The notes: generated by a model from the sequence alone, not told the origin. A DNA stretch of 50,056 nucleotides from Bacteroidota bacterium (GCA_037144095.1 JBAWXL010000002.1:1-50056); one strand, 5' to 3'; shown: positions 8,282-49,974, numbered from the stretch's first letter. Program-made: numbers and translations.

Positions 8282-8647
8282 ATGTTCAAAAGTTTTTCGG
8301 AAATGCCAATTTGGCAAACAGCACATGAGTTATCAATTGACGTATTTAAAAGGACAACGCATTTGCCTCGTTCTGAAGATTATGGATTAACATCGCAAAT
8401 CCGAAGATCAGCTAATAGTGTATCTGCAAATGTAGCTGAAGCTTTTGGAAGAAGCTCAAGTAAAGATAAAAGTAATTTTTACATTTATGCAAGAGGTTCT
8501 GTTACTGAAACTCAGAACCATTTAATTTATGGCTTAGATGTAGGATATTTTGAAAAACAGGGAGTAGAACTACTCTTAAACAAATACAATGTTTTGATTT
8601 ATGATTTAAATAAGGTTCTAAAAGCCCTATCACAACCCCAACCTTAA
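8282..8647 (+). CDS. Four-helix-bundle protein (23S rRNA intervening-sequence protein / Avd family, PF05635-like)
   Basis: 121 aa. Motifs LTSQIRRSANSVSANVAEAFGR and YIYARGSVTETQNHL are typical of the family. The C-terminal SQPQP runs into the hexamer repeat. Confidence 0.8.
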   Translation: MFKSFSEMPIWQTAHELSIDVFKRTTHLPRSEDYGLTSQIRRSANSVSANVAEAFGRSSSKDKSNFYIYARGSVTETQNHLIYGLDVGYFEKQGVELLLNKYNVLIYDLNKVLKALSQPQP

Positions 8648-8675
8648 CCTCAACCTCAACCTTAACCTCAACCTC
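8633..8675. repeat. Right boundary of the cassette: 7 tandem CAACCT/TAACCT hexamers
   Basis: caaccc caacct taacct caacct caacct taacct caacct c. Ends 4 nt before ATG 8680. Confidence 0.85.
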
Positions 8676-8679
8676 TTGC

Positions 8680-9924
8680 ATGACCAAGTTTCAACCCATC
8701 GTCAACTTTATTCGCAAGACCTTTAACTCTCCGAAGGATTTTATTCCTCTTCATGCCCCCGTGTTCTGTGGAAATGAAAAAAAGTATCTGGAGGAATGTA
8801 TTGACACAACTTTCGTTTCCAGCGTAGGTAAATTCGTCGATCGTTTCGAAGCCATGGTTGCTGAATACACAGGTGCAACAAAAGCTGTTGTTTGCGTTAA
8901 TGGCACGAATGCCCTTCATTTAGCCATGCTACTCTTAGGAGTCAAACAGGATGATGAAGTAATCACCCAGCCATTGACTTTTATTGCAACTTGCAATGCC
9001 ATAAGTTATATTGGAGCCCATCCTGTGTTTGTTGACGTTGATTTAGACACATTAGGTATGTCGCCAAAAGCTTTAAGAAAGTGGCTTGCCGAAAACGTAG
9101 AATTTAAGAATCAGGCTGAGGATAAGGTTAATAATTTCCAATCTCAACCACAACCTCAACCTCAATCTCAACCTCAGCCTCAACCTCAGCCTCAACCTCA
9201 ATCTCAACCTTACAATAAAACCACAGGCAGGCGAATTAAAGCCTGCATTCCAATGCATACTTTCGGGCATCCCTGTCGCATTGATGAGATTGTTGAAATT
9301 TGCAAAGAATATCATATCGAATTAATTGAAGATGCAGCCGAAAGCCTGGGAAGTTTTTATAAAGAAAAGCACACCGGTACATTCGCAAAAATAGCCGCCC
9401 TGAGTTTTAATGGAAACAAAACAATTACAACCGGAGGCGGGGGAATGCTTTTGTTTCAAGACGAAGACTTAGCAAAATCAGCAAAACATCTAACCACACA
9501 AGCCAAAGTTCCCCATCCATGGAATTTCGTTCATGACCAAATTGGCTATAATTATCGCATGCCCAACATAAATGCTGCTTTAGGCTGTGCTCAAATGGAA
9601 CAACTCCCTCAATTTCTCTCAGCCAAACGACAATTAGCTCATCAATACGAACAATTCTTCTCAACCTTAAACTCAACCTCAACCTTTTTCAAAGAACCCC
9701 AAAACGCAAAGTCAAACTATTGGTTAAATGTAATTATTCTAAAGGACAGAGATGAACGTGATGAATTTTTAAAATTCGCCAACGACAATGGAGTAATGAC
9801 TCGTCCTGCCTGGCAATTGATGAATAAATTGCCGATGTTTGTAGATTGTCAATGTGGCGAACTCCCTAATTCAGAATGGTTGGAAGATAGAATTGTAAAC
9901 ATCCCCAGCAGCGCGATAATATGA
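8680..9924 (+). CDS. DegT/DnrJ/EryC1/StrS-family sugar aminotransferase (LegC-like) carrying an in-frame repeat insertion
   Basis: IPLHAPVFCGNEKKYLEECIDTTFVSSVG, LSFNGNKTITTGGGGMLL (PLP Lys region), GYNYRMPNINAALG. The 24-aa QS/QP tract is atypical for the family. Confidence 0.85.
   Translation: MTKFQPIVNFIRKTFNSPKDFIPLHAPVFCGNEKKYLEECIDTTFVSSVGKFVDRFEAMVAEYTGATKAVVCVNGTNALHLAMLLLGVKQDDEVITQPLTFIATCNAISYIGAHPVFVDVDLDTLGMSPKALRKWLAENVEFKNQAEDKVNNFQSQPQPQPQSQPQPQPQPQPQSQPYNKTTGRRIKACIPMHTFGHPCRIDEIVEICKEYHIELIEDAAESLGSFYKEKHTGTFAKIAALSFNGNKTITTGGGGMLLFQDEDLAKSAKHLTTQAKVPHPWNFVHDQIGYNYRMPNINAALGCAQMEQLPQFLSAKRQLAHQYEQFFSTLNSTSTFFKEPQNAKSNYWLNVIILKDRDERDEFLKFANDNGVMTRPAWQLMNKLPMFVDCQCGELPNSEWLEDRIVNIPSSAII
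9139..9210 (+). repeat. 12 tandem hexamers (CAACCT and CAATCT/CAGCCT/CAACCA variants) inside the aminotransferase CDS
   Basis: Read directly. Encodes QSQPQPQPQSQPQPQPQPQPQSQP; the antisense reads (RL)n. An inverted arm GAGGATAAGGTTAA lies at 9118..9131. Confidence 0.95.
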
Positions 9925-12560: not shown

Positions 12561-12651
12561 CAAAACAAATAAGCTGTTTTTATGTTGAATAAAAACAAAC
12601 AATAAAAAGCAATAGCTCATAAATCATAAAGCCCTCATAAAGTTGGAAACA

Positions 12652-12861
12652 AGCTCCCACATCTCGGAAAAACCCTCCCGCATCCCGGAAAAACCCTTCC
12701 GCATTTCGGAAAAATCCTTCCGAATTTTGGAGAAACCCTTCCGCATTTCGGAAAAACTCATCCGCATTTCGGAAAAACCCTTCAACATGCTGGAAAAACC
12801 TTTCCGCATTTCGGAAAAACTCATCCGCATGCTGGAGAGACCCTTCCGCATGCACTATTTA
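12652..12861. repeat. Array A: 10 tandem 21-bp units, consensus CCCTTCCGCATTTCGGAAAAA
   Basis: Units parsed by hand in exact 21-nt register. Each has a TTCCG-N5-CGGAA dyad and a terminal A5 tract. Intergenic (12560/13151). Confidence 0.95.
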
Positions 12862-23015: not shown

Positions 23016-23156
23016 CATATTAAAAAACTTGAATTTAATTCCTCTAATTTTTTTTAATTCATTTTTATTGATATAAAATGAATATTATTAAAGGATATTC
23101 CCTGAAATAAATTCATTTTATCCGGTTTCGAATAAAAAAAATCCAATTTTATTCTC

Positions 23157-23382
23157 ACAACAGCGAGGTTCATTGTTAAAACAAGAGGGCTTATTGTTAC
23201 GACAGCGAGGTTCATTGTTAAAACAAGAAGGTTTATTGTTACGACAGCGAGGTTCATTGTTAAAACAGGAAGGTTTATTGTTACGACAGCGAGGTTCGTT
23301 GTTAAAACAGGAGGGTTTATTGTTACGACAGCGAGGTTTATTGTTAAAAAAACAAGGATGATTTTCACGATAGCGAGCATAG
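23157..23382. repeat. Array B: about 5.4 tandem 42-bp units (ACGACAGCGAGGTTCATTGTT + AAAACAAGAAGGTTTATTGTT)
   Basis: Parsed by hand. The two 21-nt halves of a unit match at 15/21 positions, so the base period is 21. Intergenic (23015/23586). Confidence 0.95.
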
Positions 23383-32942: not shown

Positions 32943-34622
32943 ATGAAAAAAACAACTATCTTTCTTCTTCTTTCCTTTTTAAGTTTTCATCTTTATTCAC
33001 AAACGGTTTATCAACATATTAGTGATCAATCGCTTTACGAGTTTTTGGATGAGCTTGCCAATGAACATTTAATAAACTTAAACACAACTATTAAGCCTTA
33101 CAGCAGGAAACTGATTGCTGAAAAGTTGGTTGAAGCTAACGGAAAGAATGAACTCCTGACAAAACGTCAGACGCAGGAAATTGAATATTATTTGAACGAA
33201 TTTAGCCTTGAAACAGGCAATCTTCCCAAATCGACACTAAATCTCTATCATAAAGGTGACAGTCTTAAAATTGGCGTGTTAATTCCTGAAGTGGCTTGGA
33301 ACACAAAGCTTTCGAAAATTCTGGTTCGACCGATATATGGCGTACGCTTCTTCTCGAAAGCGAAGGACAATTTCTATGCTACTTATGGCGGGCTGGAGGC
33401 TTCGGCTTATTTAGGAAAGAATTTTGGCATATATGCCAGTCTGAGAGACAATTATCAGGATAAATATCTGCTTGCAAAACCGACTTATTTCACGCAGGAA
33501 ATGGGGGGAAACTATAAGGTGAACGAAGGTGGACGGCTTGGAGGGGACTTTAGCGAAATGCGCGGGGGCTTGACCTATACGTGGAAATGGGGCGACATTG
33601 GCTTAATTAAAGATCACCTTGAGTGGGGGGACAACTACAATGGCGCGAATATTTTCTCGGGGAGGACGCCCTCGTTTGCGATGATTAAATTGCATTTGAA
33701 GCCTGCTAAATGGTTTGATTTTAATTATTTCCATGGATGGCTGGTGTCGGAAGTGACGGATAGCGCTCAGTCGTATATTACTAGCAATGGAGATTATCGC
33801 GCTGTTTTCACCCAAAAATATATTGCGGCTAATATGTACACGATTTCGCCATGGGAAAGGTTTAATTTATCGATTGGTAACTCGATTGTGTACGGGGATA
33901 TGCCTGTACAGGCGGCTTATTTGATTCCGTTCATGTTTTTCAAGTCGATGGACCATACGATTAATCATAATATTGATAATCAAAACTCGCAGCTGTTTTT
34001 GAACGTTAATAGTCGGAATATTAAACATCTGCATCTGTTTCTTTCTTATTATATTGATGAGTTTTCGTTGCATCGTGTGACAAGTTCGACGCGATATAAC
34101 TTTGTGAGCACGAAGGTGGGCTTCCGGCTGTCGGATTTCCCGTTGAGAAATATTGCTCTGACTTCTGAGTTTACGCAGACGATGCCGATTACGTATAAAC
34201 ATCGGGTTCCGAGCATTACTTTTGAGACAAATCAATTTAATTTGGGTCATTATTTAAGAGATAATTCGCAGGAGTTGTATGTTGCGCTGGAAGCGAAACC
34301 TTATCGAACGCTGAAAATCAAATTATCGTACCTGACGGCGTTTCACGGAAACGAAATTAAATACTTGACGGTGACGCCTGTGCCGATTGATGCGTATCCG
34401 GTGTTGAAAAATAAGACGTGGAGCAATGAAACGTTGCAGTTGAGGGTGGAATATCGGCCTTTTGCGAACACGAGTGTATTTTTGGAATATGCCAACAGCA
34501 ATATTCAGGGGTATGATATGGATATGAAAACGGCGAAATATTATTTGGATATGTATACTTCTGAATATCTGCAGGGAAAGAACAACATTTTAACGTTGGG
34601 TTTTGCTTTCGGATTTCAATAG
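32943..34622 (+). CDS. Outer-membrane beta-barrel, capsule assembly Wzi-like
   Basis: Signal peptide MKKTTIFLLLSFLSFHLYSQ. N-terminal YEFLDELANEHLINLNTTIKPYSRKLIAEKL is Wzi-like. Alternating-strand pattern with a C-terminal LTLGFAFGFQ. Confidence 0.55.
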   Translation: MKKTTIFLLLSFLSFHLYSQTVYQHISDQSLYEFLDELANEHLINLNTTIKPYSRKLIAEKLVEANGKNELLTKRQTQEIEYYLNEFSLETGNLPKSTLNLYHKGDSLKIGVLIPEVAWNTKLSKILVRPIYGVRFFSKAKDNFYATYGGLEASAYLGKNFGIYASLRDNYQDKYLLAKPTYFTQEMGGNYKVNEGGRLGGDFSEMRGGLTYTWKWGDIGLIKDHLEWGDNYNGANIFSGRTPSFAMIKLHLKPAKWFDFNYFHGWLVSEVTDSAQSYITSNGDYRAVFTQKYIAANMYTISPWERFNLSIGNSIVYGDMPVQAAYLIPFMFFKSMDHTINHNIDNQNSQLFLNVNSRNIKHLHLFLSYYIDEFSLHRVTSSTRYNFVSTKVGFRLSDFPLRNIALTSEFTQTMPITYKHRVPSITFETNQFNLGHYLRDNSQELYVALEAKPYRTLKIKLSYLTAFHGNEIKYLTVTPVPIDAYPVLKNKTWSNETLQLRVEYRPFANTSVFLEYANSNIQGYDMDMKTAKYYLDMYTSEYLQGKNNILTLGFAFGFQ

Positions 34623-34645
34623 AGATAAAATTAATTTTTGAATTG

Positions 34646-34680
34646 GAAAAAGCCTTGTGAAAACGGGGCTTTTTCTGTTT
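34646..34680 (+). terminator. Intrinsic terminator after the OMP gene
   Basis: GAAAAAGCC (34646..34654) pairs with GGCTTTTTC (34667..34675), with a 12-nt loop and a T-rich tail. Confidence 0.6.
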
Positions 34681-34974
34681 TATGTGTGAAGGTGGGGTTG
34701 TTATAAATGCAAGTTTTGGTGTAATAAAAAAAATAATTGGTTTTTTATTGCTGCATTTTATTATTCTTCTATTTCTATAAATTACTTTTATTTATAACTA
34801 AAATGTATTCAAGTAATTAACTAACTATTCTATTGTCTGGAATATTATTTTTTGAAATAAAAAACTATTTTTACAAACTTACCTTAACCTTGATTAACTT
34901 TTTTACAATGAAGATTTATATTGTTCATTCATTCCTAAGATTCTTTAAAAAAGGAAAATTCAGCCAAAATTTGA

Positions 34975-35142
34975 GGTAGAAACGACATACTCTTACAAGA
35001 ATCTGTCGGTTCTTCTGATAGAAACGACAGGATGGTGCAAAAATCTGTCGTTTCTTCTGGTATAAACGACAGGATGGCGTAAAAATCTGTCAGTTCTTTT
35101 GGTACAAACGACAGGATGGTGCACCATCCTGTCGTTTGTACC
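34975..35142. repeat. Array C: 4 tandem 42-bp units, each a hairpin (AAACGACAG..CTGTCGTTT); the last unit is a perfect 42-nt palindrome
   Basis: Units at 34975, 35017, 35059 and 35101. I checked 35101..35142 (ggtacaaacgacaggatggtgcaccatcctgtcgtttgtacc) base by base and it is fully self-complementary. Confidence 0.95.
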
Positions 35143-35342
35143 AGTATTTTTAGCCTCTTTTTTCATCAAAAAACAGCTTTTTAATATGCAAATAATCATT
35201 TAAAACACATATTATCATTGCTTTAGCATTAAATGATCCCACCACCACAACAATGCCCTTATTGAATGTCTGTTCAATTCCAATAAAAGACACTCGGATT
35301 TACCGGTTTGGTAGTAGTTTTTTTTACACTTCAAACAAAAAC

Positions 35343-35350
35343 TAATTTTG
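35343..35350 (+). promoter_or_regulatory. Candidate -7 box TAATTTTG upstream of module 4
   Basis: TAnnTTTG match about 95 nt upstream of ATG 35444. Confidence 0.3.
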
Positions 35351-35443
35351 CTGCCAAAGCGACTGAATTTCCTTTACATCCCTACACTTGCCTATATCAC
35401 AAAATATATGTACTTTCGCCCCTCTAAATTAACATCAACAGAA

Positions 35444-36439
35444 ATGAATCAACATGCAACGGACCAGGCTTTTCCATTATCGGGGGCTAAGGTATTAGTG
35501 ATAGGAGGAGCCGGTTTTATTGGCGGCTTTGTGGTAAGCGAGCTATTAAAAGAGGAGGTGAAAGAAGTAATCATCTACGATAATTTCACCCGCGGAAAGA
35601 TGAGCAATATAGCGGAATCGCTTAAAGACCCGCGCTGTTCGGTCTACGCTTATGGCGGCGATGTGAGAGACATCGATATCTTAAATACTGCCATGCAGGG
35701 GGTTGATTATGTGTTTCATTTGGCGGCTATGTGGCTGTTGCATTGCAAAGATTATCCGCGCACGGCTTTTCATGTCAATATCGAGGGCACTTTCAATGTG
35801 CTGGAAGCATGTGTAAATAATAAAGTTAAAAAGCTGCTGTATTCTTCTTCGGCTTCGGTTTATGGCGATGCGGTTGAAGTCCCCATGACAGAAGATCATC
35901 CTTTCAATAATCGTAACTTTTATGGTTCCACCAAGATTGCAGGCGAAGCCATGGGCACGGCTTTCAACGATCGTTATGGCTTGCCGATAGTGGGATTGCG
36001 CTATATGAATGTATACGGTCCCGGTCAGGATCAACATGCTGCCTACACCGGTGTGATACCCATTATGCTGAATAAAATTGATGCCAATGAACCACCCATG
36101 ATTAATGGAGACGGAAGTCAGGCTTATGATTTTATTTATGTGGAAGATGTTGCCCGTTGCAATGTGGCTGCTTTGAAGAGTGCTGTTACACACGGATATT
36201 ACAATGTAGGCACCGAAGTGCAAACTTCCATCCGCGAATTGTGTGATACGATTTTAGACTTAAAAAAATCTGCTTTGCAGGTAACTTATATTCCTTACAG
36301 CGAAGACGATGCCCGTCAGTTTGTTCAAAACCGCATAGGTTCGGCACAAAAAGCAAAGAACGAACTTGGGTTTGAATATAAATATTCTTTAACCGAAGGC
36401 TTGTTGAAATTGATTGAATGGCGTAACAAAACGCTTTAA
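35444..36439 (+). CDS. NAD-dependent sugar epimerase/dehydratase (SDR)
   Basis: VLVIGGAGFIGGFV, YGSTKIAGE, LRYMNVYGPGQ. ATG 35444 preferred over the upstream TTG-type start at 35348. Confidence 0.75.
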   Translation: MNQHATDQAFPLSGAKVLVIGGAGFIGGFVVSELLKEEVKEVIIYDNFTRGKMSNIAESLKDPRCSVYAYGGDVRDIDILNTAMQGVDYVFHLAAMWLLHCKDYPRTAFHVNIEGTFNVLEACVNNKVKKLLYSSSASVYGDAVEVPMTEDHPFNNRNFYGSTKIAGEAMGTAFNDRYGLPIVGLRYMNVYGPGQDQHAAYTGVIPIMLNKIDANEPPMINGDGSQAYDFIYVEDVARCNVAALKSAVTHGYYNVGTEVQTSIRELCDTILDLKKSALQVTYIPYSEDDARQFVQNRIGSAQKAKNELGFEYKYSLTEGLLKLIEWRNKTL

Positions 36440-44050: not shown

Positions 44051-44302
44051 TGGAATTTGCATTCGAAATTTCCCGATGCACATGCGCATTTTCAGAATGC
44101 ACATTCGGAATTTCGGAATGCGCATTCAGAACTCCGGGATGCACATCCTGAATTTCGGGATGTACATCCCGAAAGTTGGAATTTACGTTCGGAATGTTGG
44201 GATGCATATTCAAACGTTCCGCATGTACGTCCAAGATTTTGGGATGTACATCTGAAACTTTCGAATGTGCGTTTTAACATTTGGCATGAAAGTCTGAAAA
44301 CA
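44051..44302. repeat. Array D: 12 tandem 21-bp units, consensus yGGRATGYRCATYCnGAAwTT
   Basis: Parsed by hand in exact register. Unit 6 contains the perfect 16-bp palindrome CGGGATGTACATCCCG (44156..44171) and unit 4 contains GAATGCGCATTC. Lies between convergent genes. Confidence 0.95.
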
Positions 44303-49640: not shown

Positions 49641-49960
49641 GTTTAGCTGTTTAGATAACTAGACTTTTAGCTGTTTAGACATTTAGACTTTTAGGAAGAA
49701 GCTCCAAACCTACCAGGTTTCCAAAACCTGTTAGGTTTTTTTAAAAAGGTTGAAGGCTATTAGGCTGTAGACTGAAGTAAGCTAATAGACTTTTAGCTGT
49801 TTAGTCATTTAGGCTTTTAGGAAGAAGCCCCAAACCTACCAGGTTTCCAAAACCTGTTAGGTTTTTTTAAAAGACTGAAGGCTATTAGGCTGTAGACTGA
49901 AGGAGGCTAATAGACTTTTAGCTGTTTAGACTTTTAGGCTTTTAGGAAGAAGCCACAAAC
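49641..49960. repeat. About 2.4 tandem copies of a 125-126-bp unit containing TTTAG-rich short repeats and two AAACCT..AGGTTT hairpins
   Basis: Copies start at 49660, 49786 and 49911. Hairpins in copy 1: AAACCTaccAGGTTT (49706..49720) and AAAACCTgttAGGTTTT plus T-run (49723..49742). Confidence 0.9.
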
Positions 49961-49974
49961 ACTACACTCTTTGG

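What the first reader, a model, noticed from the sequence alone, without database searches (positions are those of the whole stretch)
34975..35142. Array C: four consecutive 42-bp hairpin units ending in a perfect 42-nt palindrome
- Units 2 and 3 carry 9-bp inverted arms AAACGACAG / CTGTCGTTT around a 14-nt loop. Unit 1 is a degraded copy.
- Unit 4 (35101..35142) is fully self-complementary, giving a 21-bp stem with no loop. A long perfect palindrome of this kind is normally unstable in bacterial DNA, which argues for selection or recent formation.
- The array lies about 300 nt downstream of the OMP terminator and about 300 nt upstream of module 4. Hand-counted 60-nt samples suggest base composition differs on the two sides, but that is a small sample.
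- Candidate roles are a cruciform or recombinase site, a replication or transcription barrier, or a processed structured RNA.
Basis: partly seen in the sequence, partly recalled or inferred. Interest (0 to 1): 0.62.

Follow-up and report, generated by a model that had tools for sequence, protein, structure and literature searches.

The report
Orphaned hairpin-repeat head of gene cassette
The four 42-base repeats and the perfect palindrome are real, but they are the left-over front end of a small gene cassette whose protein gene has decayed here. It is one of about 290 non-coding repeat arrays in this bacterium that share a 21-base rhythm, so it is not a special marker of a genomic island border.

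Summary
There are four 42-bp units, and the perfect palindrome is 44 nt long (35100-35143), not 42.

It is not a one-off. This uncultured Bacteroidales genome holds 471 tandem arrays with a period of 21 bp or a multiple, each with its own sequence. This class is already described but unexplained (Subirana & Messeguer; compare BrickBuilt/PgRS of Porphyromonas).

Array C has a 79%-identical paralogue on contig C72. There the same array, terminal hairpin, T-run and 90-nt spacer lead into an intact 327-aa gene. In the window only a start-less, frameshifted stub of that gene remains (about 35219-35376).

Cassettes of relatives of that protein, seven from other assemblies and the C72 paralogue, keep about four (G001: six) 42-nt dyad units, in some with the same core sequence. 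All end in a hairpin plus T5-9.

The palindrome is that conserved terminator-like hairpin with its two arms made identical. The stems differ between paralogues on both arms. Long perfect palindromes are enriched at array ends across the genome.

The protein belongs to a group of about 70 paralogues, probably one superfamily (helical domain plus prealbumin-like domain). Arrays lie upstream of 33 of the 57 members that have enough upstream sequence to judge.

The most likely present effect is a strong + strand terminator between glycan modules 3 and 4. Whether intact arrays act as RNA or as phased DNA sites is unresolved. This scan has found similar gene-linked arrays before, on other DNA.

The parts
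34644..34677 (+). Intrinsic terminator of the upstream 559-aa outer-membrane-type gene (32943-34622). It shows that module 3 already ends before array C.
   Evidence: Terminator-like site: 15 pairs, loop of 4, tail TTTTATGTGT.
34938..34974 (+). Conserved left flank of the cassette head (…TAAAAAAGGAAAATTCAGCCAAAA…). Homology with contig C72 begins here.
   Evidence: blastn of window 34938-35373 against C72:8055-8486 gives 79% identity. Alignment A4.
34975..35100 (+). Units 1-3 of the 42-bp array. Each carries inverted arms AAACGACAG / CTGTCGTTT that alternate in orientation with 23/19-bp spacing. Unit 1 is degraded.
   Evidence: Symmetric positions per unit are 15, 14 and 9 of 21.
35100..35143 (+). 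Terminal unit: a perfect 44-nt palindrome (22-nt arms). It is the symmetrised form of the cassette's conserved terminal hairpin.
   Evidence: I4. All 21 of 21 positions are symmetric. The 7 right-half differences from unit 2 all create complementarity. The C72 counterpart has a 14-bp stem at the same place.
35144..35153 (+). Tail GTATTTTTAG (T-run at 35147-35151). Together with the palindrome it forms an intrinsic-terminator-like site on the + strand.
   Evidence: RNA hairpin dG is -36.8 kcal/mol. All eight other cassettes examined (seven from other assemblies and the C72 paralogue) have T5-9 at the same place.
35144..35218 (+). Spacer between hairpin and former start codon. It is the best-conserved part of the duplicated segment. 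A third copy lies next to a different 48-nt palindrome on contig C38.
   Evidence: Alignment A4, columns 201-290. C38:22250-22340 is 80% identical.
35219..35376 (+). Pseudogene stub of the 327-aa cassette gene (about codons 1-52). The start ATG has become ATT, there are two 2-nt indels, and two in-frame TAG stops.
   Evidence: tblastn 35249-35323 and 35320-35376 in two frames, 72-79% identity, E 4.5e-10. Also.
35343..35350 (+). TAATTTTG, an exact match to the Bacteroidota -7 promoter box TAnnTTTG, 94 nt upstream of the ATG of module 4's first gene. This is a candidate promoter (inference only).
   Evidence: Read. The motif is enriched between arrays and gene starts genome-wide.
35444..36439 (+). 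NAD-dependent epimerase/dehydratase, the first gene of glycan module 4.
   Evidence: Pfam PF01370, E 6.9e-55.

Best explanation
**What it is.** Array C is the orphaned non-coding head of a small gene cassette. Intact cassettes have four parts:
- about four (up to six) tandem 42-nt units, each made of two inverted arms
- a last unit extended into a long hairpin followed by a T-run
- a spacer of about 90-110 nt
- a gene of about 327 aa encoding an N-terminal long-helix bundle plus a C-terminal prealbumin/CarboxypepD_reg-like sandwich

In the window the gene has been reduced to a stub of about 155 bp with no start codon and with frameshifts. Module 4 of the glycan locus now follows it.

**Wider class.** The array belongs to this genome's population of 21-bp-period (here 2 x 21) arrays with variable sequence.

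**The palindrome.** It is not a separate device. It is the cassette's conserved terminal hairpin whose two arms have been made identical. The most likely cause is intramolecular templated correction (quasi-palindrome template switching), which appears to have happened at the ends of other arrays too.

**How it works (inferred).**
- In intact cassettes, transcription entering or starting in the array ends at the terminal hairpin and T-run.
- The array and hairpin therefore gate or insulate expression of the gene behind them.
- The alternating arms allow two folding registers, and only one of them builds the terminator.
- In the window the 22-bp stem locks the terminating fold. The surviving element most probably acts only as a strong + strand intrinsic terminator and insulator between module 3 and module 4.

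**Shown versus inferred.** Shown: the homology, the decay of the gene, conservation of the architecture, symmetry, and genome-wide statistics. Inferred: transcription, termination, the correction mechanism, and any regulatory role.
For: **Paralogue**
- Window 34938-35373 matches C72:8055-8486 at 79% identity, with the same flanks and T-run.
- In C72 the segment runs into an intact 327-aa ORF. In the window the ORF is broken.

**Cassettes of related proteins**
- All six F3 members in this genome have their own 42-bp array upstream, five of them 177-256 nt from the start and C72 74 nt.
- Proteins 45-65% identical, from a congener and from unrelated metagenome contigs, have about four (G001: six) 42-nt dyad units upstream.
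- L025 and L033 share the exact core TGTCGTTTCTTCTGGnnnAAACGACAG with array C.
- All eight other cassettes examined (seven from other assemblies plus the C72 paralogue) end in a hairpin followed by T5-9. The example in L026 is GCTTCGACA-12 nt-TGTCGAAGC-TTTTTTT.

**Symmetry**
- The window palindrome scores as a terminator.
- Stems differ on both arms between copies: AAACGACAG/CTGTCGTTT versus GAGTCGACA/TGTCGACTC versus GAAGCTTCGACA/TGTCGAAGCTTC.
- 75.8% of cells are paired in register against 35-49% when the partner is slid.
- The terminal unit is the most symmetric in both paralogues: 21/21 and 17/21.
- 8 of the 15 longest perfect palindromes lie at arrays, which cover about 2% of the genome (binomial P 4e-10).

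**Link between arrays and the protein group**
- Arrays lie upstream of 33 of 57 assessable members, against 188 of 3430 other genes (odds ratio 24, P 6e-26).
Against: - No transcript data could be consulted.
- No canonical TAnnTTTG promoter was found upstream of the arrays of this family.
- Genome-wide there is no promoter enrichment upstream of arrays, and no bias in T-run orientation. A transcribed-array model therefore does not generalise.
- The strict 21/42-bp rhythm equals whole numbers of DNA helical turns. That points to a DNA-level constraint rather than an RNA-level one.
- The congener's orthologous array has partly broken right arms.
- The shuffle control of the covariation test is not significant: 92 of 500 shuffles reach the observed score.
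- RNA folding shows no consistent strand preference.
- The upstream operon already has its own terminator, so a second one may be redundant.
Confidence: 0.6

Rival explanations
1. The array is a phased row of DNA docking sites, similar to sopC, iterons or operators. A dimeric DNA-binding protein, either an unknown global factor or the product of the neighbouring gene, binds each dyad every four helical turns. The perfect palindrome is the strongest (nucleating) site. The array controls or silences the adjacent promoter.
For: - Periods are sharply 21, 42 or 63 bp across 471 arrays, that is, whole numbers of helical turns.
- Arrays generally sit upstream of the -7 promoter box rather than inside transcripts, and they show no strand polarity.
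- The 5-nt outer cores TGTCG/CGACA are conserved across orthologues, like half-sites.
- The copy number of about four is conserved.
- Dyad symmetry of units is moderately enriched genome-wide: 32% versus 11% expected reach at least 14 of 21 matching positions.
Against: - About 290 arrays with different sequences would need either very many specific binders or a shape-reading protein.
- The adjacent 327-aa proteins are acidic (pI 5.3-6.5). They have no recognisable DNA-binding domain and no hit in Pfam, NCBIfam, PADLOC or PHROGs.
- This model does not explain the hairpin plus T-run at the gene-proximal end of all nine cassettes of this type examined, the window's copy included.
Confidence: 0.28
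2. The array is a selfish or neutral minisatellite, like the BrickBuilt (23 nt) and PgRS (41 nt) tandem repeats of Porphyromonas. It has no function for the cell. The palindrome is a replication error (strand switch) at the array edge that has not yet been removed.
For: - Arrays are frequent in all intergenic contexts, including 41 between convergent genes.
- 72 arrays sit at contig ends.
- Arrays A and B each have an ~80% identical copy elsewhere without flank homology.
- Such repeats are described as parts of MITEs in a related order (PMC4596501).
Against: - The array architecture, the unit number and even the 27-nt core are conserved upstream of proteins only 45-57% identical in unrelated assemblies.
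- The extended terminal hairpin predates the C2/C72 split.
- No IS5-like terminal inverted repeats or leader/tail segments were seen when reading the flanks.
Confidence: 0.1
3. The palindrome is a cruciform or recombinase target that marks a genomic-island or module border and mediates inversion, deletion or module exchange in the glycan locus.
For: - The array lies between a gene conserved in congeners (OMP, 72-73% nt identity) and genes that are not conserved in them.
- A truncation scar lies 230 bp downstream.
- All four arrays in the window sit at module boundaries.
Against: - The palindrome is unique in the assembly.
- No tyrosine recombinase gene lies on the contig.
- There is no composition break.
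- Equivalent arrays occur about 290 times irrespective of islands.
- The element is explained by homology to a gene cassette.
Confidence: 0.04

Closest known systems
Constant-size (20-22 nt and doubles), variable-sequence non-coding tandem repeats of bacteria (Subirana & Messeguer: PMC8161180, and their J Bacteriol 2020 paper cited there)
   Same: One genome holds many non-coding arrays with the same repeat length but unrelated sequences. Doubled periods (40-42 nt) are related to the 20-21-nt ones. The function is unknown, and the authors consider protein binding or small RNAs.
   Different: Those papers do not link the arrays to a particular gene family, do not describe terminal palindromes, and did not mention Bacteroidetes in the texts I searched.
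BrickBuilt (23-nt) and MITE464/PgRS (41-nt) tandem repeats of Porphyromonas gingivalis (Klein et al. 2015, PMC4596501)
   Same: Both are found in Bacteroidales. Both are intergenic minisatellites of about 21-23 or 41 nt, tens of copies per genome, lying 49-591 nt from genes, with effects on transcription.
   Different: Those elements are single sequence families bounded by IS5-like terminal inverted repeats with leader and tail segments. Here nearly every array has its own sequence, I saw no such inverted repeats, and the arrays are tied to a gene family.
Type III toxin-antitoxin loci (ToxIN, CptIN, TenpIN, AbiQ/antiQ; from my own knowledge of Fineran 2009 and Blower 2012)
   Same: The order of parts matches: tandem direct repeats of 35-45 nt (2-5.5 copies), then a Rho-independent terminator, then a protein gene. 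The repeat sequence is specific to each protein lineage while its length is fixed.
   Different: The protein is not a ToxN-type nuclease. It has a different predicted fold, is acidic, and has no PADLOC or Pfam hit, and PF13958 was not found in the genome. Neither toxicity nor RNA processing has been shown. The units are simple dyads, not known pseudoknots. In the window the gene is dead.
sopC centromere of plasmid F (12 x 43-bp repeats, each with a 7-bp inverted repeat bound by SopB) and iteron or parC arrays (my own knowledge)
   Same: Tandem units of about 42-43 bp, each carrying a short inverted repeat, lie next to a gene. The spacing is in helical phase.
   Different: The setting here is chromosomal, in dozens to hundreds of loci. 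There are no ParA/ParB or Rep genes, and the neighbouring protein shows no DNA-binding features.
REP/BIME clusters of enterobacteria
   Same: Both have imperfect palindromes in alternating orientation arranged in tandem in intergenic DNA. Some REP/BIME clusters act as terminators or mRNA stabilisers.
   Different: REPs are one sequence family per genome, spread by a RAYT transposase. Here the sequences are locus-specific. Two Y1 transposase genes exist in the genome but are not linked to the arrays.
Quasi-palindrome template-switch mutation (Ripley; Lovett laboratory; my own knowledge)
   Same: It converts an imperfect inverted repeat into a perfect one in a single templated event. This matches the seven right-half changes of unit 4, all of which move towards complementarity.
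   Different: It is a mutational mechanism, not an element. It was inferred here, not observed.

Membership tests
Constant-period, variable-sequence tandem repeats (Subirana & Messeguer class) | Many arrays in one genome share one repeat length (20-22 nt or its double) while their sequences differ. | tested here: met
   TRF rows: 457 of period 21, 222 of period 42 and 82 of period 63, against 35 of period 20 and 33 of period 22. These form 471 loci with different consensus units.
Constant-period, variable-sequence tandem repeats (Subirana & Messeguer class) | The arrays are non-coding. | tested here: met
   About 291 of 320 arrays of at least 84 bp lie outside credible ORFs. ORFs called across the arrays are repeat artefacts.
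Intrinsic (Rho-independent) terminator | A G+C-containing hairpin is followed directly by a T-run on the transcribed strand. | tested here: met
   20-pair stem, 4-nt loop, tail GTATTTTTAG on the + strand. dG is -36.8 kcal/mol. Actual termination was not measured.
Type III toxin-antitoxin system | Tandem direct repeats lie directly upstream of the protein gene, separated from it by a terminator. | tested here: met
   Met in the intact cassettes: C72, G001, L022, L025, L026, L029, L030 and L033. In the window the gene is only a stub.
Type III toxin-antitoxin system | The protein belongs to a ToxN/AbiQ/CptN/TenpN endoribonuclease family. | tested here: not met
   No Pfam, NCBIfam, PADLOC or PHROGs hit. 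The AlphaFold model is a helical bundle plus a prealbumin-like sandwich. PF13958 was not found in the genome, but that search's control was uninformative.
Type III toxin-antitoxin system | The repeat RNA is cut into units and neutralises the toxic protein. | not testable with these tools
   This needs expression experiments and RNA data.
REP/BIME-RAYT | One palindrome sequence family is dispersed in many copies. | tested here: not met
   The palindrome is unique, and the 14-nt core occurs only inside array C. Only 3 related loci exist: C72, C228 and C38.
MITE with internal minisatellite (BrickBuilt/PgRS) | IS-like terminal inverted repeats with leader and tail segments bound the array. | tested here: not met
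   Reading the flanks at 34900-35230 and their C72 counterpart showed no inverted ends. This was a reading by eye only.
Plasmid centromere or iteron array (sopC, parC, Rep iterons) | An adjacent gene encodes the DNA-binding partner (ParB/SopB, RHH ParR, Rep). | tested here: not met
   The neighbouring protein has no DNA-binding domain hit and is acidic, pI 6.0. Binding itself was not tested.
Recombinase or cruciform site at an island border | A cognate recombinase lies nearby, the site is repeated at other borders, and there is a composition break. | tested here: not met
   No PF00589 match on contig C2. The palindrome is unique. There is no GC step.

The most novel reading that the evidence does not exclude
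The constant-period arrays and the ~320-aa 'helical bundle plus prealbumin-like domain' proteins behind them may form a previously undescribed kind of paired module. There are about 70 paralogues in this genome, and DUF6261 genes show the same arrangement. In this reading each protein works with its own tandem-repeat RNA (type III toxin-antitoxin-like or attenuator-like) or with its own phased DNA array. That would give a function to the 'enigmatic' fixed-length, variable-sequence repeats of bacteria. Orphan heads such as array C would be the fossils of cassette turnover.
Probability: 0.15. Interest if true: 0.85.

Novelty: new variant of a known kind. Interest (0 to 1): 0.55.

Why it matters
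- Fixed-length, variable-sequence tandem repeats are a described but unexplained feature of many bacterial genomes.
- This case ties one such array to a conserved cassette design: array, terminator-like hairpin, then a gene of an uncharacterised family with many paralogues.
- The array core is conserved across assemblies whose proteins are only about 55% identical.
- Array ends are repeatedly converted into long perfect palindromes.
- Together these points give concrete, testable handles on what the repeats do: does the terminal hairpin terminate, is the array RNA made and processed, and does the protein need its array?
- For annotation, it warns that gene callers place spurious ~100-aa ORFs on these arrays, and that MAG contigs break at them.

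Tried and rejected
**Database searches with no result**
- Rfam at E-value threshold on 34000-36000 gave only sub-threshold chance hits.
- The 327-aa protein has no hit in Pfam, NCBIfam, PADLOC or PHROGs, even at E 10 for Pfam.
- It has no profile similarity to the genome's DUF6261 protein.
- Fold searches matched only the C-terminal beta-sandwich.

**Tests of RNA versus DNA function that were inconclusive or negative**
- RNA folds and G-U pair counts of both strands show no consistent strand preference.
- Genome-wide A5/T5-run orientation relative to the neighbouring gene shows no bias.
- T-runs after the proximal array end are not general: 9 of 33 and 39 of 188.
- The -7 promoter box is not enriched upstream of arrays. 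It is enriched only between array and gene.
- No consistent box was found in the cassettes of this family.
- The shuffle control of the covariation count is not significant.

**Other**
- An exact scan for the conserved right flank in metagenome contigs gave 0 hits. A scan for the unit core in genome contigs also gave 0 hits.
- Congeners were checked for an orthologous array after the OMP gene. There is none, and gene order differs.
- Reading the arrays as coding was rejected. The predicted peptides are repeat artefacts with unconserved N-termini, a 41-nt unit occurs, and the frame is broken in the window.

Full report
**1. The observation**

- The sequence at 34975-35143 reads as four 42-bp units.
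- The repeat finder places four copies at an exact 42-bp spacing. It also reports a perfect inverted repeat with 22-nt arms and no loop at 35100-35143. TRF agrees on the period of 42.
- The palindrome is therefore 44 nt, two more than reported.
- Units 2 and 3 carry AAACGACAG … CTGTCGTTT (unit 3: CTGTCAGTT). Because the arms alternate in orientation with 23/19-bp spacing, each 42-bp unit is a degenerate inverted dimer of a 21-bp half-unit.
- The palindrome sequence is unique in the 4.70-Mb, 471-contig assembly.
- LepA places the organism among uncultured Bacteroidales near Lentimicrobiaceae, at 80% amino-acid identity.

**2. Array C is one of hundreds**

- The window has three more arrays of period 21 or 42 at 12660-12853, 23148-23377 and 44060-44211. 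All are intergenic in a glycan-synthesis gene train.
- TRF on the whole genome gives 457 rows of period 21, 222 of period 42 and 82 of period 63, but only 35 of period 20 and 33 of period 22. These form 471 loci (82 kb) with unrelated unit sequences.
- About 291 arrays of at least 84 bp are non-coding.
- Among the 187 arrays with genes on both sides, 55 lie between divergent genes, 41 between convergent genes and 91 between co-directional genes. They are therefore not purely promoter elements.
- This is the 'constant repeat size, variable sequence' class of Subirana & Messeguer (PMC8161180), whose function is unknown.
- In Bacteroidales, the 23-nt BrickBuilt and 41-nt PgRS repeats of Porphyromonas are the nearest described relatives (PMC4596501).

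**3. Array C is a copy of a cassette head**

- Window 34938-35373 matches contig C72:8055-8486 at 79% identity.
- The two copies share the left flank, a four-unit 42-bp array, a long terminal hairpin, the tail AGTATTTTTAGCC and a highly conserved spacer.
- In C72 the homology runs into an intact 327-aa ORF.
- In the window the ATG has become ATT, two 2-nt indels shift the frame and two TAG codons interrupt it. Homology stops at about 35376, roughly 70 nt before the epimerase gene of module 4.
- The window therefore holds a cassette head whose gene has been lost.
- A weaker copy lies on C228.
- The 90-nt spacer also recurs on C38, next to a different 48-nt perfect palindrome, the longest in the genome.

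**4. The cassette is conserved**

- All six F3 family members in this genome have their own, differently sequenced 42-bp dyad array upstream, five of them 177-256 nt from the start and C72 74 nt.
- The congener G001 has an orthologue (65% identity) with an array carrying the same AGAGTCGAC arm as C72.
- Homologues from unrelated metagenome assemblies (45-57% identity) all have about four 42-nt units upstream.
- Two of them (L025, L033) contain the exact core TGTCGTTTCTTCTGGnnnAAACGACAG of array C. Non-coding sequence is thus kept while the protein has diverged by about 45%.
- In L026 the inner stem has changed on both arms (TGTCGAAGCTTC … GAAGCTTCGACA).
- In all nine cassettes of this type examined, the window's copy included, the last arm pair is followed by T5-9. 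The L025 and L026 ends are textbook terminator shapes.
- Public gene calls place 95-125-aa ORFs over these arrays. Their translations are repeat artefacts.

**5. The palindrome**

- Compared with internal unit 2, the terminal unit differs at seven positions in its right half, and all seven create complementarity to the left half.
- The terminal unit is the most symmetric unit in both paralogues: 21/21 in the window and 17/21 in C72.
- C72's right arm (CGTCATCC…CTACC) resembles the window's right arm rather than C72's own internal units. The extended terminal hairpin therefore predates the duplication.
- The copies differ by about 21% overall. About four substitutions would therefore be expected in 44 nt on one lineage, yet the arms show none that break symmetry. 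This argues for ongoing arm-to-arm correction or for selection (my estimate).
- Genome-wide, 8 of the 15 perfect palindromes with arms of at least 14 nt lie at arrays, usually at an end or where the array flips orientation (binomial P 4e-10).
- Symmetrised terminal units are also seen in C19 and in G001 C296.
- A single templated event (quasi-palindrome template switching; my own knowledge) explains this better than independent substitutions.

**6. What the palindrome probably does**

- On the + strand the palindrome plus GTATTTTTAG scores as an intrinsic terminator, with an RNA hairpin dG of -36.8 kcal/mol.
- Because arms alternate, the array RNA could fold in two registers, and only one of them builds the final terminator. 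In L025, L029 and L033 the competing short-loop hairpin is very stable.
- In the window the 22-bp stem would always win.
- I therefore read the intact design as a leader or stand-alone hairpin RNA closed by a terminator that gates or insulates the gene. I read the window copy as a fossil that now acts at most as a strong one-way terminator, 470 nt after module 3's own terminator.
- An exact -7 box (TAATTTTG, 35343-35350) inside the stub may drive module 4 (inference).

**7. What argues against an RNA reading**

- The 21-bp rhythm equals two helical turns.
- Genome-wide, the -7 box is enriched between array and gene (2.6-3.2 per kb against 0.77 per kb background) and not upstream of arrays.
- T-run and A-run orientation shows no bias.
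- Folding shows no strand preference.
- The shuffle control of the covariation count is not significant.
- A phased DNA docking array therefore remains a serious rival for the class as a whole.
- The neighbouring proteins are poor candidates for the binder. They are acidic (pI 5.3-6.5) and have no DNA-binding domain.
- AlphaFold (pLDDT 87) gives a long-helix bundle plus a prealbumin/CarboxypepD_reg-like sandwich.

**8. The gene link is broader**

- Several families of ~310-330-aa proteins in this genome carry arrays upstream: F1 8 of 14, F2 7 of 16, F3 6 of 6 and F5 4 of 5.
- F1, F5, F6 and F9 show a weak C-terminal CarboxypepD_reg match.
- hhalign links F1 to F5 (95%), F1 to F3 (87%) and F2 to F6 (99%).
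- HMM searches gather about 70 members. Of the 57 with enough upstream sequence, 33 have an array within 700 nt, against 188 of 3430 other genes (odds ratio 24, P 6e-26).
- Only about 11% of arrays sit next to this superfamily, so it does not explain the whole class.
- The genome's single DUF6261 gene also has a 42-bp array upstream. This fits earlier notes of this scan on other Bacteroidales genomes.

**9. The locus in relatives**

- Two congeners keep the OMP gene (72-73% nt identity) but have no array after it, and their downstream genes differ.
- No recombinase gene lies on the contig.

**10. Limits**

- No reads or RNA data could be examined.
- Gene calls for the statistics are my own ORF heuristic.
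- The assembly is an 87%-complete MAG, and 104 arrays touch or neighbour contig ends.

Noticed in passing
G000 contig C38:22339-22386 (own genome, not in the window): The longest perfect palindrome in the genome (48 nt, AACCCAAATCCGTCATTAGAAATT|AATTTCTAATGACGGATTTGGGTT) sits directly beside a copy of the same 90-nt spacer that follows array C's palindrome. It lies at a contig end, downstream of two FdtA-type sugar genes.
   Followed up: partly
window 12636-12851 and 23145-23370: Arrays A and B each have one ~80% identical array elsewhere in the genome (C146:9699-9914 and C144:5692-5925). The match is confined to the array, with no flank homology, unlike array C.
   Followed up: partly
window 34714-34803: An AT-rich stretch upstream of array C matches three places in the congener G001 (two at contig ends) at 79-81% identity. 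It also matches 33 nt on own contig C424, which carries a Y1 (IS200-like) transposase gene with a stop codon 1.7 kb away. It may be another small dispersed element.
   Followed up: no
window 49660-49965: Here there are 2.4 copies of a 125-bp repeat containing the motif AAACCTGTTAGGTTT. The same motif forms a 32-nt perfect palindrome at C177:7243-7274 and occurs upstream of the C19 array, so this may be a REP-like terminator family.
   Followed up: no
G000 contig C356:686-1820: The only DUF6261 (PF19775) gene of the genome has a 42-bp array (1648-1820) 230 nt upstream of its start. Two copies of a separate GGGACGG-containing inverted repeat lie between the array and the gene.
   Followed up: partly
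loci L022 2140-2454, L025 2095-2472, L026 2137-2472; own C72:7915-8301: Public gene callers and simple ORF lists place 100-128-aa 'hypothetical proteins' over the 42-nt arrays, because the period is a multiple of three. These look like annotation artefacts. Many contigs of the homologues also end inside the arrays.
   Followed up: yes
window 8633-8675 and 9139-9210: CAACCT hexamer runs appear in the TRF output. One lies inside the aminotransferase ORF 8680-9924. I did not examine them.
   Followed up: no
locus L033 7207-7480 (- strand): In one orthologous cassette, about 350 extra nt lie between terminator and gene. They include a long AAGTCTTAAGT-type palindrome and a canonical TATCTTTG box 8 nt before the ATG. 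An insertion appears to have brought the gene its own promoter.
   Followed up: no
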